Notes: generated by a model from the letters alone, not told the origin. A DNA stretch of 64,000 nucleotides from the human T2T-CHM13v2.0 reference genome, Homo sapiens (GCF_009914755.1 NC_060927.1), one strand, 5' to 3'. Positions 507 through 18,655 are shown, numbered from the stretch's first letter. Program-made: numbers and translations.

Positions 507-586
507 ATGGCTATAAGTGCCAGATCTGCAGCTGTAGCTCTACTAGGAATGATGTTCCAACATCAACATAAGGGCTGTACTCCTTG
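507..586 (+). CDS. putative coding exon 1 (MAISARSAAVALLGMMFQHQHKGCTP)
   Basis: ATG at 507 in strong Kozak context (AGGATGG). Donor TG|GTATCT at 587 leaves phase 2, matching the phase-2 start of the exon at 1215 (TG+C = Cys). Confidence 0.5.
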
Positions 587-825
587 GTATCTTATAAGCG
601 TGTGTGTGTGTGTGTTTTCATGTATACTATTAGATGCCTTTTTCTAAGACACACAGTCTATGCAGCCACCCTTACCTTTGAGGAGAATTTGTCTTAAGAG
701 ACCATTAGCCATAAAAATTTGCTTAGAACTATGAAAAGAGGTAAAAATCCTTCTAAAATCTACGGTATTATCTTTCTTTTAGGGGAAAACTTTATGCTTA
801 TAATTTGTTGTTGGTTGTGTTTTTT

Positions 826-1130
826 TTTGGTGTTTTTTTTTTTTTTTCTTTTAGACTGAGTCTCTGTTGCCCAGGCTGGAGTGCAGTGGCATTATCTCAG
901 CTCACTGCAACCTCCGCCTTTCGGGTTCAAGAGATTCTCCTGCCTCAGCCTCCCAAGTAGCTGTGATTACAGGCACACACACCACCACACCCAGCACATT
1001 TTTATGCTTTTAGTAGAGATGGGGTTTCACCATGTTGGCCAGGCTGGTGTCGAACTTCTGACCTCCAGTGATCCCCCGGCCTCGGCCTCCCAAAGTGCTG
1101 GGATTACAGATGTGAGCCACTGTGCCCAGT
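826..1130 (-). mobile_element. Alu (AluS-type)
   Basis: Poly-T then reverse-complement Alu consensus (gcccaggctggagtgcagtggc...gtgagccactgtgcccag). Confidence 0.95.
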
Positions 1131-1214
1131 CTGTTGTCGTTTTAAACAAGGATATTTACATTAAAAAGCTGTAAAACACATATATGAACACTTTAAGTGT
1201 TTTCTTTTACTCAG

Positions 1215-1359
1215 CTCCTCAGGTCAAAACACAAGTAGTCAAGAGATTTGTCCATCTAATTCATCATACTACTCTGATCCAAGTGAGACCCACACTGGGT
1301 CAGCTCCATCAAGGAGAAGAACATTCCACCCACGTTTGGATTCTGGAATATCATCCTTG
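1215..1359 (+). CDS. putative coding exon 2 (SSGQNTSSQEICPSNSSYYSDPSETHTGSAPSRRRTFHPRLDSGISSL)
   Basis: Acceptor ttttcttttactcAG, donor TTG|GTAAAT. 48 codons open in the phase-compatible frame; GC higher than flanks. Confidence 0.6.
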
Positions 1360-2315
1360 GTAAATATTTTTAATTAACTCTTTACCTGATGATAATTTTA
1401 TAGAACATATTTTATTTGATATTCAACGTTTCAAAATAAGTATATTAGCTGTTTATCCCTACCCTTGTAATTGTGAGAGGAGAAATGAAAAGTTGACACT
1501 CTCAGTTCCAATTCAAAGAGTAAAAAAGAAAGAAGTTGGATTGGAGGAAGGAAGATCAAAAAGGAGGAGAAGATGAGTAGAAAAGATAATGACCATTAAA
1601 GCCAAAATGGCACTCCTTCCTTTCTCCTGCTGAGTGCAAATTCTGTCTCTATTCTGCGATTTCCTTTCCTTTCTTTCTGGAATTTCCTTTGTCTGCAAGA
1701 TACATTTTTCTTTTTTCCTGAACTCACCACTTCTAAGACATTCTCTCTAAGCTATCTAACTGGAATCATACACGCCTTTTCCCCCTTCCCTTCATACATA
1801 ATTATTCTAGCCATCCCTCTGGCTTAAGGTGAGTTATTCAAATGTCTACCTGCCAAATTACAGAAAATTAGTTTTTCAAGCACAATTATCATGTTTTATT
1901 CAACTTTCTATCCCCAGTGTTTAACAGAATGCCTGACATATAATGTGGTAAAATATATATTTTTGAATAAAATGCGATGAAGCATGCTAGCATCAAAAAA
2001 TGTTTATTGAACAATATATTAATCAATTGGCCCATCAGAATTAAAAAAAGGAAAAATTACATGGCAAGACACAAATATTCGCTCTTCCTTTAGGAAGAAA
2101 CAACTGTCACACAGCTGCACCACTCTGACAACCTTACACAGAAATACATAAAAACATGCAGCAGCTCATTTTCCTACAATGTCAGAAGTTCCAAAATCAA
2201 CCACTTAGCTCCTTAAAAAATAAACGGGTTTTTGTACAAAAGTAGATGTCTGGTGAAAAATGAAAACTTTCCTCTCAAATACAGCTTTAGCTTAGAACAA
2301 TTTTTCTTTTCCCAG

Positions 2316-2363
2316 CACAAGCCTCATAAAATAACACAGAGGCAGTGGGTGTGGCAGTCCTAG
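2316..2363 (+). CDS. putative exon 3 (HKPHKITQRQWVWQS*), disabled: ends in TAG and in the wrong phase
   Basis: Strong acceptor tttttcttttcccAG and donor TAG|GTAACT. Phase-0 frame open for 15 codons; other two frames hit TAA early. Needs 49 nt to join the phase-1 exon at 10692. Confidence 0.55.
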   Translation, partial: HKPHKITQRQWVWQS

Positions 2364-15204: not shown

Positions 15205-15402
15205 CTGCAGAATTTTAAATATGAGCAAAAACCATCTCATATCTTTCAAACAGTTACCAAGGATACCTCAGATACAGCATTTATCCTTGGCCGAAAACCA
15301 CATTGAGACTCTAACTGGATTCTCCAGTTTACGGTGCACTCCACTGGAATCCCTTATTCTCAAGAGGAACCCTTGTGAGTTCCACCAAAATTACAGGAAG
15401 CA
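15205..15402 (+). CDS. exon 6, three LRRs and start of LRRcap ([14 protein letters not shown]...[14 protein letters not shown]...[19 protein letters not shown])
   Basis: Acceptor tcttttgtatccAG, donor CA|GTAAGG. Phase 2/2 fits both neighbours; canonical LxxLxLxxN spacing. Confidence 0.9.
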
Positions 15403-18400
15403 GTAAGGCCGCAGACACACTAAGTCATCTTTTGCACTTCATTGAATATTATACTTTTAACTATATTTTAAAATATTGTCCCTCTCTTGCTCAAATTTAC
15501 CCAGCAAATACTTATAGAATCTACTCTATGTTGAACACTTCATGCTTCTGATCTCACCTAAAGACTTTTGAACTAATCTTTCTTCATCTTTTTACAATTT
15601 TTTCTTAATATACTCTTTTCTCTTGGTTAATTTATAGTTACTGTGCAGATTTTTAGGCTCCTTCTGTAATGACTTTACCTATACAAAGTTGTTTAATTTT
15701 AGACTTTCAAATTCCACATTTTCTCCCACATGCTTAATAGATATTATGTCTTTTAAAAAATTATACATACATATATATTTTATTAAGTTCTATGTGACAA
15801 TTTTATGAATTGTTTATTCTCTGGTTTTACTTTCACTCTTTGGGCCCCAAGGGCAACATTAAGTGAATACGAAGAATTCAATTTACTCCAGTGCTTGAAA
15901 GAGCTCAAAAACCTGCCAAGAAGAAACCATTTTTATTACTTTGTCACAACTGGGAACATTCCTAATGATAATAATGGAACCTAAACCTTGAAGTGTGCAC
16001 CCAGTAATATGCCCACCTATTTATCTCCAGCTAATTCCCAGTACCACTAATTAGTGTACTTAGGGGAATTAAAAGAATAAAAACAAGCAACTGAATTCTA
16101 CAACCTGTATTTCCACCCATGACTGAGGTCATCTCCCCTCCCAGGCGAATCTGTCAAACAAAGAGTTATATCATCTCCAGGGTCCATTTATATTCTATGA
16201 TTACAATCTTTTGTTTACTTCAATTTCAGTAAAAGACGTAGTTTTCACCATCTTCTTTTCTCACACTGCTCTTTTCCCATGAACAGCAACTGTATTCCAG
16301 AAGCCTATATGATGTTAGACTCTTCAACGCCTGACGTACAATGAAAATTTGTCAAAATAGAAATTATAATCTCTGTTGTTACATAAATCTCATTACTCCA
16401 GTTGTCTGCCCTATGACTGGAGTCTGGAAGCAAAATTTCATGTCTGTGATGATAATAAATTCTTAAATTGCTTTCACATAACAGTGAAAACTAGCAGCAC
16501 AGTTGCTGTAATATTGAGCTAATATTTAACCATAATAATATTTTGGAGGTTTAAAATTATATTTCCTATAATCAGAGGAGGTTTAGCTGGACATTTCAAC
16601 ATCATTCATAAGAAAGCACAGTCCTAGTCATAAGGATAATTTAATAGTATTGTATTTCAGTTTTGTTAATTCATATGTGGGGTTTTATAAAGCATTTTGG
16701 TCCCAACTCAGCCACTTGCCTCTCTTCAAAGAATGCCTTACAATAATAGTATTAAGATGAATTGTCTGAAATTGGATATGCCCTGAGGTCTTACTGTAAT
16801 TCCGTCTACAAAATTCATGATGTGGTATAGAGTTATGTAGGAATGAGGGATATAATGAGGTTCTTCTGTTTTTCCAGTATTAACTCTATTGGATTGAGTC
16901 CAAGGTGTATATACGCTGACTTTCAAGTTAGAAAAAGCCAGGTTATATTAACTTAGGTAGTGCAGGGTTACATTGAATAGAATGATGGGGTCATTTTAGA
17001 GTATGAAGAAAAGGTTTAAGCATCCACTCATGCTAAGGAACTAAGTTGGAATCAGAAGTTCATTCAAACATGGATTCAGTTACCCAGCCAAAAATCCACA
17101 CCTTGAAGATTATAACAGCTTTCATTTTGTCACTGGGTATCTGTGTTGAGGATTTGGGCCAGAGCTTCAGATGACTCTTTTTACACACCATGCTCAGAAT
17201 TATTTAAAGTACAAGCTTTTCTTGACCATTATCACCTAGAATTGTGACTGCTTTCCCTTCCTCCTTTGTTTCAGATCCACCAATAAGAAGACAGCACAAT
17301 TCAAAAGAGAAAGGACTTAATGACAGAGCTAATAATGTAAATCCCAGTAGGTTAGAAGGTGGCCCCATTTCTGGGACACCTACAGGCAAACTTCTCTATC
17401 ATTCTCTAGGAGTCAAACATGATATTAGTTCATTACTGCTTAACTTAAAAAAAAAATCAGTGGCTAGAAATTCTTGCCAGCTAAGTATGAATTTTGAAGC
17501 CAGAAGACATAGATTTTAATATTTGCTTTGTCACCTACAGGCCTTATGATTTTGAATAAGTTACTTAAAATGAGGGATAAAAACCAATCTGACAGAGTTG
17601 TTGTGAGGATTTAAAGAGATGCATAGGAAGCAATTCATGTTAAGAAAATCATGCAGCCAATGGGGGCTTTCAAGGAGGTCAGTTCCATCATTAGCTGACT
17701 TAGCATATCTGCTAAAAGGTTTCAGTATCTTTCATGCAGGCAAATTCAAATGCCATAGATTTCTCCCAGCCAGAGCCCTCAGAATTCCCAGATCTAGAAA
17801 AGCTGTCATTCTAAAGAAAATGCTGCTTTTTAATGCCGCTATGTACATGACCACTGTTAACTGGATTGAACTGAAGGATCTGTTTCTGAACATAGAAGTG
17901 ACTCCCTGAATTTGAAATAGGAGCTTTAGAAGTGCTCGCTTTCAGGAAAAAATAACAGCATAATATTATTTCCCACTCCCTCTTTTATATTTATCAGCCA
18001 GAATTCTTCTTTAACTATCACTGAATATTGTGGGCTTGCTTTACTTTCTCTCTCTTTCTAAACTTTTAACTTTGTAATGAGCATATATATCATGATCTCA
18101 TTCTTTCTCTCATGGTTAGTTGGCTAAATCCACTCATTGATTTTTTTTCCCTTATAAGACTGTAAAAACTGGAATGAAATTCTCTTATAAAAACAGATTG
18201 TAGACAGTCCCATTTCTCTGATCAATATTTACCACCTGCTGAAAGATCTATTAGATCCCTGAAAGGGCAAGCTATGGCAAGGTCATCAGGTCAATTAATA
18301 TGAATAATATTTTATTTTAGCTCTACTGCAAAGATAAGCAACACAGAATGAAGTGATAGCCATTCATCTTCCTTATAACAATAGGCAAAGTCCATTCACT

Positions 18401-18470
18401 TATAAAGAGAATAAGTGAAATAAAATGCTTTTGTTCAATATAGTTTTTTTTTTTTTAACTTTTGCTTTAG

Positions 18471-18582
18471 AGTATTCTCCTGTTTGCCAAACTTAAAAAT
18501 GCTGGATGGAATCTTGAAGCTACCAGAAGATTGCTTATCACCAGAAACCAATATTTTTTCAAAAATATGCCTTGTGTCCTAA
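18471..18582 (+). CDS. terminal coding exon 7 ([36 protein letters not shown])
   Basis: T-rich acceptor ttttgctttAG. Completes LRRcap [17 protein letters not shown] across the junction. TAA at 18580-18582. Confidence 0.9.
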
Positions 18583-18628
18583 TGCAGTCTGTATAGAAAG
18601 AAAGCAATCATCATTGTTGCTAAAAGCT

Positions 18629-18655
18629 AATAAACACAGGACATGCATGATTAAA
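18629..18655 (+). terminator. polyadenylation signals of the LRR gene (AATAAA 18629-18634; ATTAAA 18650-18655)
   Basis: About 47 nt after the stop, followed by a T-rich downstream element. Confidence 0.65.

What the first reader, a model, noticed from the sequence alone, without database searches (positions are those of the whole stretch)
507..18655. Hidden 7-exon gene for an LRR-LRRcap protein with a prenylation box
Seen: short exons scattered among repeats join through GT-AG sites into MAISARSAAVALLGMMFQHQHKGCTPC-SSGQ...LDSGISSL-HKPHKITQRQWVWQS[break]-ISEEEQLFRQ...[15 protein letters not shown]...[14 protein letters not shown]...[17 protein letters not shown]...[14 protein letters not shown]...[33 protein letters not shown]...FSKICLVS*, then AATAAA. 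The LRRcap motif is split by a 3-kb intron and only appears after splicing, which strongly argues for a real gene. Known: short LRR arrays with LRRcap occur in the U2A'/ANP32/SDS22-like group, including ciliary proteins such as CFAP410 and DNAAF1. Inference: this is a unitary locus with introns, not a retrocopy, encoding a membrane-anchored LRR adaptor, perhaps ciliary or germline. I do not recognise it. It may be annotated only as a lncRNA or an LRR pseudogene (e.g. an LRRC77P-like entry; unverified).
Basis: partly seen in the sequence, partly recalled or inferred. Interest (0 to 1): 0.92.

Follow-up and report, generated by a model that had tools for sequence, protein, structure and literature searches.

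The report
LRRC77P: frameshifted relic of LRRC77
This is the already annotated human pseudogene LRRC77P, the broken remains of an old vertebrate gene for a small lipid-anchored leucine-rich-repeat protein that humans lost through a small frameshift in one exon.

Summary
The real exon 1 (ATG TCT GAA AG|gt) lies about 6 kb upstream of the window. The real exon 3 is 3772-3861. It is 90 nt where orthologs imply 94, the frame breaks near 3813-3816, and TAA at 3853-3855 ends translation after 79 residues. The 205 codons downstream are still open, and every splice site, the stop and the CLVS end are intact. LRRC77 proteins of about 270-280 aa occur from sharks to mammals, and 109 of 118 fetched proteins carrying the exon-7 motif end in a Cxxx box. 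The genome holds no second copy, so this is a unitary loss. Exon 15205-15402, the best-matching one, is missing from the RefSeq transcripts listed. No paper found describes LRRC77 function. It is already known, and of modest interest as a recent loss of an old, unstudied gene.

The parts
1215..1359 (+). LRRC77P exon 2 (ancestral coding exon; Ser-rich N-terminal region, ends in DSGISSL)
   Evidence: RefSeq exon. tblastn with macaque P0016: 96% identity, E 7e-26. AG/GT borders.
3772..3861 (+). LRRC77P exon 3, the disabled exon. The frame breaks at about 3813-3816 and a premature TAA lies at 3853-3855.
   Evidence: tblastn splits the orthologous match between frame 1 (3772-3840) and frame 3 (3813-3890). 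The exon is 90 nt, whereas orthologs imply 31 codons plus 1 nt, i.e. 94 nt. The first stop is at codon 80 when read from the ancestral ATG. The exon is listed by RefSeq as an exon of another transcript; NR_033843.2 uses the downstream donor at 3964.
10692..10810 (+). LRRC77P exon 4 (helical linker, ...LQENWEDCK)
   Evidence: RefSeq exon. tblastn E 7e-20. AG/GT borders.
12968..13110 (+). LRRC77P exon 5 (N-terminal cap strand and helix, plus the first LRR)
   Evidence: RefSeq exon. tblastn E 6e-25 with macaque and E 1e-19 with chicken.
15205..15402 (+). Ancestral exon 6 (LRR 2-4 and the first half of the LRRcap). It is 198 nt, so skipping it keeps the frame. It is absent from the RefSeq transcripts listed for the window.
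   Evidence: tblastn E 2e-35. Pfam LRR_4 31.2 bits, above the cutoff of 27. 121 database proteins match at E<=0.001, with 67-96% identity among the 120 listed, from primates to sturgeon. cag|C acceptor and CA|gtaagg donor.
18471..18582 (+). Coding part of exon 7: second half of the LRRcap, the CaaX box CLVS (18568-18579) and stop TAA (18580-18582)
   Evidence: tblastn E 9e-14. Sequence read. Cxxx end in 109 of 118 fetched proteins that carry the exon-7 motif.
18629..18634 (+). AATAAA 47 nt after the stop. The RefSeq transcript instead splices on from 18697 to 19850-19942 and 20295-21917.
   Evidence: Sequence; hub annotation table.
507..586 (+).
   Evidence: No ortholog HSP here. Orthologs start MSES..., encoded by ATG TCT GAA AG|gt at L006 3979-3989, which is window -6021 to -6011.
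2316..2363 (+).
   Evidence: No ortholog HSP here. Sequence read.

Best explanation
The locus is LRRC77P, a transcribed unitary pseudogene. It is the human remnant of LRRC77, a seven-coding-exon gene found across jawed vertebrates.

Inferred from orthologs, the ancestral protein of about 275 aa has three parts:
- a disordered, Ser-rich N-terminal half with conserved motifs (MSESSSG, DSGxxSxLPSD, CPRVREGP);
- a small SDS22-like module of about four LRRs closed by an LRRcap;
- a C-terminal CaaX box.

It would therefore be a prenylated LRR adaptor tethered to the cytosolic face of membranes.

In human, exon 3 has a net loss of 4 nt. This shifts the frame, so translation from the conserved ATG ends at TAA 3853-3855 after 79 residues, before any LRR. 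Everything else is still intact: the start codon, all splice sites, 205 downstream codons, the CaaX box and the stop. That points to a recent inactivation, after the split from gorilla, because gorilla and orangutan protein models read through exon 3. The RNA is still made and is annotated as non-coding.
For: Shown:
- Exon-by-exon tblastn matches with a frame switch inside exon 3.
- Stop at codon 80 read from the ATG; 205 open codons after the break, with the first Met only at codon 109.
- Exon 1 with ATG TCT GAA AG|gtaag upstream of the window.
- GT-AG at every exon (exon 3 donor read).
- Macaque, mouse, cattle, ferret, kiwi, chicken, bichir and sturgeon proteins are collinear and intact. Gorilla and orangutan models have ...KVEQHD(V/I)QGSQL... 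where human is broken.
- Orthologs of 260-292 aa in skate, shark, bowfin, zebrafish and Xenopus were read, and others are listed from eel, salamander, turtle, lizard, gharial, birds and mammals.
- 5 of 5 genome matches lie in this one locus.
- Pfam LRR_4 above its cutoff in 3 of 4 orthologs (P0114 26.9 bits, just below 27) and LRR_9 above its cutoff in 1 of 4 (P0114, 40.7 bits against 30.5).
- The best PDB sequence relatives are SDS22, LRRC23, internalin B (InlB), ANP32 and DRC3.
- In the AlphaFold2 model of the mouse ortholog, residues 1-106 have pLDDT below 50 and the LRR part has 10-residue block means of 61-90. Foldseek matches it to ANP32A/B, U2A', CFAP410-N, LRRC51 and SDS22.
- CaaX end in 75 of 84 and 109 of 118 proteins that carry the exon-7 motif.
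- RefSeq itself calls the locus a transcribed pseudogene (hub table).

Inferred: prenylation, membrane tethering, the adaptor role, and the exact 4-nt deletion. The last is deduced from protein lengths, not from ape DNA.
Against: - Apart from the frameshift, the relic looks very healthy. Human differs from the consensus at only 4 of 125 columns that are at least 90% conserved among the 44 non-primate rows. That is similar to macaque (3 of 126), orangutan (3 of 94) and mouse (7 of 126).
- Lineage-specific changes are 4 in human against 2 clear ones in gorilla (8 further differences fall in its alternative exon) and 7 each in orangutan and macaque. There is thus no clear protein-level sign of decay, and selection on the downstream frame cannot be excluded.
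- Only one human haplotype (this assembly) was read, so a polymorphic frameshift cannot be ruled out here.
- Chimpanzee status is unknown.
- The gorilla and orangutan models are computational. Both use an alternative donor that drops 17 residues of exon 5 and both have non-canonical C-termini, so the ape genes may also be impaired.
- The macaque cluster representative has Tyr in place of the CaaX Cys.
- No expression or proteomic data were available.
Confidence: 0.9

Rival explanations
1. The human locus still yields a functional LRR protein. This could happen because the frameshift is haplotype-specific, or because translation enters the downstream frame by a non-AUG start, ribosomal frameshifting or an unannotated upstream exon.
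For: 205 codons downstream of the break remain open across five exons, with intact splice sites, CaaX box and stop. There are few replacements at conserved sites.
Against: The downstream frame has no Met before codon 109, which lies inside LRR 2. In exon 3 that frame opens only at 3792. No human protein with exon 6 appears among the 120 listed of 121 hits. RefSeq annotates a pseudogene. Both RefSeq transcripts skip exon 6.
Confidence: 0.05
2. One reading: a 7-exon coding gene that starts at 507 (MAISARS...) and includes 2316-2363.
For: Both pieces have GT donors and plausible acceptors. Exon 507-586 joins exon 2 in frame.
Against: There is no similarity to any of the three orthologs tested at those places. 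Orthologs start MSES, encoded by an exon 6 kb upstream. Exon 2316-2363 ends in an in-frame TAG, and the join to exon 4 is out of frame. Neither piece is in RefSeq.
Confidence: 0.01
3. After losing its coding role, the locus was kept as a functional long non-coding RNA. This is compatible with the best explanation but adds a function.
For: It is annotated as transcribed, with extra 3' exons (19850-19942, 20295-21917) spliced on after the old stop (hub table). It is listed among prognostic lncRNAs in a hepatocellular carcinoma signature (one passage read).
Against: Inclusion in a signature is correlation only. No sequence evidence for RNA-level constraint was obtained here. No paper found reports a function.
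Confidence: 0.1

Closest known systems
LRRC77 (mouse Lrrc77, UniProt A0A1B0GT72; cattle LRRC77; mostly 'uncharacterized protein LOC...' in other vertebrates)
   Same: It is the orthologous gene. A cattle GWAS table lists LRRC77 near GOLIM4. The exon structure is collinear, with 88-96% identity in exon 6 to placental mammals, and both end in a CaaX box.
   Different: The human copy has a frameshift and a premature stop in exon 3, and RefSeq's human transcripts omit exon 6 (hub table).
SDS22 / PPP1R7
   Same: It is the best solved-structure sequence match (E 1.5e-12). The last LRR plus LRRcap align over 80 residues, including RNP...YR..V...LP.L..LD.
   Different: SDS22 has many more LRRs (chains of 261-363 residues made almost wholly of repeats). 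The SDS22 chains matched showed no counterpart of LRRC77's disordered N-terminal half or CaaX end. LRRC77 has about four LRRs. PP1 binding was not tested.
ANP32A/B and U2A' (U2A'/phosphoprotein 32 family, Pfam LRR_9)
   Same: They share a short LRR array capped by an LRRcap. Foldseek gives TM 0.59-0.66 normalised to ANP32A/B (2je0_A, 4xos_A, 8r1j_G) and an rmsd of 4.5 A over 141 columns to yeast U2A' (7b9v_W). Several orthologs are named this way by UniRef.
   Different: From memory, ANP32 has an acidic tail and is nuclear. LRRC77 has a Ser-rich N-terminal half and a lipid-anchor box. Sequence identity is only 17-28%. LRR_9 passes its cutoff in 1 of 4 orthologs tested.
Axonemal small LRR proteins (LRRC51, LRRC23, DRC3, dynein light chain LC1, CFAP410 N-domain)
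   Same: They have the same SDS22-like LRR plus cap fold.
   Different: No chain in the solved axoneme entries is LRRC77 itself; all matches are distant (E 1e-10 or weaker). As far as I recall, none of these proteins is prenylated.

Membership tests
LRRC77 orthologous group (human member = LRRC77P) | Collinear similarity over all coding exons to named LRRC77 proteins | tested here: met
   tblastn with mouse LRRC77 (P0021), macaque and chicken proteins hits exons 2-7 in order. Exon 1 was found upstream.
LRRC77 orthologous group (human member = LRRC77P) | Single syntenic locus next to GOLIM4 | tested here: met
   All 5 genome matches lie in this locus. The hub table places GOLIM4 downstream. A cattle GWAS table lists LRRC77 among the genes within 0.5 Mb of a BTA1 marker, together with GOLIM4, EGFEM1 and MIR551B (passages read).
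Unitary pseudogene | A disabling lesion in a gene that is intact in related species, with no functional paralogue in the same genome | tested here: met
   Frame break in exon 3 and stop at codon 80. Intact proteins exist in other vertebrates. There is no second locus in the genome. Whether the lesion is fixed in human populations was not testable.
SDS22-like LRR proteins with LRRcap (Pfam LRR_9 / InterPro U2A'-phosphoprotein 32 C-terminal) | LRR repeats scoring above the Pfam cutoff | tested here: met
   Human exon 6 alone scores LRR_4 31.2 bits (cutoff 27). Orthologs score LRR_4 26.9-35.4 bits, above the cutoff in 3 of 4.
SDS22-like LRR proteins with LRRcap (Pfam LRR_9 / InterPro U2A'-phosphoprotein 32 C-terminal) | LRR_9 / cap region above the curated cutoff | tested here: inconclusive
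   LRR_9 scores 40.7 bits in bichir (passes 30.5), but 30.2, 27.5 and 26.8 bits in cattle, chicken and mouse (just below). Human exon 6 alone scores 14.5 bits. The joined human exons could not be handed to the Pfam tool. The cap does align to the SDS22 cap, and UniRef names several orthologs by this domain.
CaaX-prenylated proteins | Cys at the fourth position from the C-terminus followed by aliphatic-type residues | tested here: met
   Human relic CLVS. 109 of 118 fetched proteins with the exon-7 motif end in Cxxx: CTIL 52, CIVS 9, CILS 7, CIIL 7, CIIS 6 and others. The 9 exceptions are the macaque representative (Tyr), alternative C-termini and partial models.
CaaX-prenylated proteins | Actual attachment of a farnesyl or geranylgeranyl group | not testable with these tools
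   This needs biochemistry on an orthologous protein.

The most novel reading that the evidence does not exclude
LRRC77 is a functionally unstudied prenylated LRR adaptor as old as the jawed vertebrates. It also carries a conserved DSGxxS motif of the kind I recall as a beta-TrCP phosphodegron. Its inactivation by a single small frameshift happened on the human lineage after the split from gorilla. That would make it a very recent loss of a gene that has been strongly conserved since before sharks and bony vertebrates diverged. The most conserved exon is not in the human RefSeq transcripts.
Probability: 0.55. Interest if true: 0.4.

Novelty: already known. Interest (0 to 1): 0.25.

Why it matters
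The locus is already catalogued, so the main value is a corrected reading: where the real exons are, which lesion killed the gene, and what the ancestral protein looked like. Beyond that, LRRC77 appears in every jawed-vertebrate class sampled, with a conserved lipid-anchor box, yet no paper found here describes its function. Humans lacking it would therefore be a natural knockout of an unstudied conserved gene. That matters for interpreting mouse Lrrc77 phenotypes, and for GWAS or lncRNA signals assigned to LRRC77P.

Tried and rejected
Exon 4 gave only sub-threshold chance-level matches (CFAP61_N 16.6 bits against a cutoff of 27). I do not read that as a ciliary link.
- I looked for faster protein evolution on the human branch. 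The counts (4 human, 2 gorilla, 7 orangutan, 7 macaque) do not separate human from the others, so I make no claim of decay beyond the frameshift.
- The full-length AlphaFold2 model is weak overall (mean pLDDT 57; the other four models 31-38). Only the LRR part was used, and TM scores normalised to the query are low (0.21-0.39) because half the protein is disordered.
- I did not date the lesion relative to chimpanzee. The protein database clusters at 90% identity and does not show cluster members.
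Full report
**What is there**

The hub table places the window at chr3:170686001-170750000 of T2T-CHM13 and lists LRRC77P, a transcribed pseudogene, across the finding.

All seven proposed pieces have a GT after their 3' end, except the last, which ends at the stop. 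All have an AG before their 5' end, although for the third piece the AG sits two bases further in than I first assumed, at 2314-2315.

Four pieces coincide with RefSeq exons: 1215-1359, 10692-10810, 12968-13110 and 18471 onward. One (15205-15402) is not in the RefSeq transcripts listed. Two (507-586 and 2316-2363) are in neither RefSeq nor, as shown below, any ortholog.

**Orthologs**

The 65-residue translation of 15206-15400 found 121 proteins at E<=0.001 among 148 candidates. The 120 listed run from primates (up to 96% identity) through other mammals, birds, tuatara and caecilians to bichir and sturgeon (67-70%). Most are 200-300 aa long. Several are named 'Leucine rich repeat containing 77', including mouse A0A1B0GT72; most are 'uncharacterized protein LOC...'. 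None is human and none is 100% identical, so no human protein model in that database contains this exon.

A second search, with the bichir protein, found 293 proteins at E<=0.001, of which 120 are listed. It added skate, shark, bowfin, eels, zebrafish and many other teleosts, frogs, salamanders, turtles, lizards, snakes and a gharial. Nearly all cover the whole query, and most are about 270-280 aa. The gene is therefore at least as old as the jawed vertebrates.

**Exon map and the lesion**

tblastn of the macaque, mouse and chicken proteins against the window hit six places in order: 1213-1362, 3772-3890, 10691-10849, 12965-13144, 15203-15403 and 18478-18579. At E<1 they hit nowhere else in the window.

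In exon 3 the match is split. Residues LPSDSCKYLTWHKV are in frame 1 up to 3813, and (R)HNVQGSQLRCPRVREG is in frame 3 from 3813-3816 onward. Orthologs have ...KVEQHD(I/V)QGSQL... there, including the gorilla and orangutan models.

Orthologous exon 3 must be 31 codons plus one base, i.e. 94 nt. Human 3772-3861 is 90 nt. The net loss of 4 nt is my inference from protein lengths, because I had no ape DNA.

The start of the protein (MSE + S) is not in the window. I fetched the 10 kb upstream and found ATG TCT GAA AG|gtaagaaa at L006 3979-3989 (window -6021 to -6011). This lies inside the first RefSeq exon, which starts at -6147.

Joining exon 1, exon 2, 3772-3861 and exons 4-7 in a script gives a first stop at codon 80. 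That stop is TAA at window 3853-3855. The result is the same with RefSeq's longer exon 3.

After the break, 205 codons run open to the ancestral stop. The first Met in that frame is codon 109, inside the second LRR.

The genome holds no other match to the macaque protein: all 5 matches at E<=0.001 are in this locus, from 66 candidates scored. This is a unitary pseudogene, not a retrocopy or a duplicate.

Exon 507-586 joins exon 2 in frame but matches no ortholog, and the real first exon is upstream. Exon 2316-2363 ends in an in-frame TAG and does not restore the frame needed by exon 4. Exon 4 needs one base from the exon before it, whereas exon 2 ends on a full codon.

**What the ancestral protein looks like**

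An alignment of 45 orthologs has 45 invariant columns and 63% mean column identity. Conserved blocks are:
- MSESSSG at the start;
- DSG(I/L)xSxLPSD, then CPRVREGP;
- LQENWE(D/N)C;
- ILRRLIRVE;
- [12 protein letters not shown];
- [15 protein letters not shown];
- LKRNPCEF;
- LPNLKxLDG.

Pfam finds LRR_4 in all four orthologs tested, above its cutoff in three. LRR_9, the U2A'-type LRR-plus-cap model, spans residues about 152-254. It is above its cutoff in 1 of the 4 and just below in the other three.

The closest solved chains by sequence are SDS22/PPP1R7 (E 1.5e-12, last LRR plus cap), LRRC23, internalin B (InlB), ANP32B, DRC3, dynein light chain 1 and U2A'. None is LRRC77 itself.

AlphaFold2 on the mouse protein with that alignment gave a weak overall model (mean pLDDT 57). 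Residues 1-106 are below 50. The LRR part has 10-residue block means of 61-90, with short strands at 150-157, 174-177, 196-199 and 220-223 followed by cap helices.

Foldseek against the PDB returned 22 matches at E<=0.001. They include ANP32A/B, U2A', the CFAP410 N-domain, LRRC51, SDS22, DRC3, Mex67 and a Chlamydomonas central-pair protein. So does the remark that the cap is split by the 15403-18470 intron.

**The prenylation box**

The human relic ends ...FSKICLVS, then TAA. Among all 196 proteins fetched, 118 contain the exon-7 motif P(N/K)LKxLDG, and 109 of those end in Cxxx:
- CTIL 52 and CIIL 7, an ending I recall as the geranylgeranyl type;
- CIVS 9, CILS 7 and CIIS 6, which I recall as the farnesyl type;
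- a further 16 variants, with 1-5 proteins each.

The nine exceptions are the macaque cluster representative (YLVS), models with alternative C-termini and partial models. The regex misses some true orthologs, for example zebrafish with PNLQVLDG, which also ends in CTIL.

The box is thus conserved from shark and skate to mammals. I infer that the protein is prenylated and membrane-tethered; this has not been shown.

I also noticed that DSGxxS is present in 120 of the 196 proteins. From memory it has the form of a beta-TrCP phosphodegron. That is a lead, not a test.

**How degraded is the human copy?**

Apart from the frameshift, hardly at all. At columns at least 90% conserved among the 44 non-primate rows, the counts of differences are:

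| Species | Differences | Columns compared |
|---|---|---|
| Human | 4 (P>I after REG, L>Q shared by the anthropoid rows (H in capuchin and marmoset), T>I, K>R) | 125 |
| Macaque | 3 | 126 |
| Orangutan | 3 | 94 |
| Gorilla | 2 | 88 |
| Mouse | 7 | 126 |
| Cattle | 1 | 126 |

Changes private to one lineage among human, gorilla, orangutan and macaque number 4, 2 (plus 8 that are an alternative-exon artefact), 7 and 7. These counts do not single out human, which fits a young lesion. They equally mean that I cannot show relaxed constraint from proteins alone.

**Literature**

- 'LRRC77P' occurs in 4 papers in the library (listing only). In the one I opened, a single passage lists it as one of 19 lncRNAs in a liver-cancer signature.
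- 'LRRC77' as a whole word occurs in 2 papers. One is a cattle GWAS table listing it near GOLIM4 on BTA1, with an unreferenced remark about a mouse behaviour phenotype. The other is a spatial-transcriptomics paper on brain ischaemia, where Lrrc77 is a marker (passages only).
- 'repeat containing 77' finds nothing.
- I found no paper on the protein's function or on its loss in human. Subscription journals and supplements were not searched.

**Verdict**

The small additions to the annotation are:
- the ancestral exon 6 (15205-15402), absent from the listed RefSeq transcripts;
- the position of the lesion;
- the conserved CaaX end;
- the age of the gene.

Noticed in passing
window 17274-17400 (+): An alternative exon follows tttcag|ATCC. 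Read in two different frames, it supplies the non-canonical C-termini of several primate gene models: STNKKTAQFKRERT at 17276-17317, as in orangutan and sifaka, and RRQHNSKEKGLNDR at 17286-17327, as in gorilla and capuchin. The gorilla model then reads exon 7 in the wrong frame.
   Followed up: partly
window 13059-13110 (+): The gorilla and orangutan models both drop the 17 residues [17 protein letters not shown] of exon 5, apparently by using an internal donor. The human sequence of that stretch is intact. Whether the ape genes are also impaired is open.
   Followed up: no
L006 3853-3989 (window -6147 to -6011): Exon 1 has upstream ATGs (ATGATGAAAAATG...) that open a short upstream reading frame before the conserved ATG. 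Where cattle and ferret proteins start six residues earlier (MHQQDM / MYQQDM), human reads TTG CAC CTG CAA GAC ATG.
   Followed up: no
Orthologs, C-terminus (P0016 cluster): The macaque cluster representative has YLVS instead of CLVS, so the lipid-anchor Cys is lost there. Snub-nosed monkey, lemur, Prolemur and galago models show P>K and C>R at the two C-terminal conserved columns, probably because of alternative last exons.
   Followed up: partly
Orthologs, N-terminal half (human exon 2, window about 1336-1353): A conserved DSG(I/L)xS motif, directly followed by LPSD, is present in 120 of 196 fetched proteins. Its form recalls a beta-TrCP phosphodegron (from memory).
   Followed up: partly
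window 56645-56983: HMGN2P26, a processed pseudogene listed by the hub. I did not examine it.
   Followed up: no
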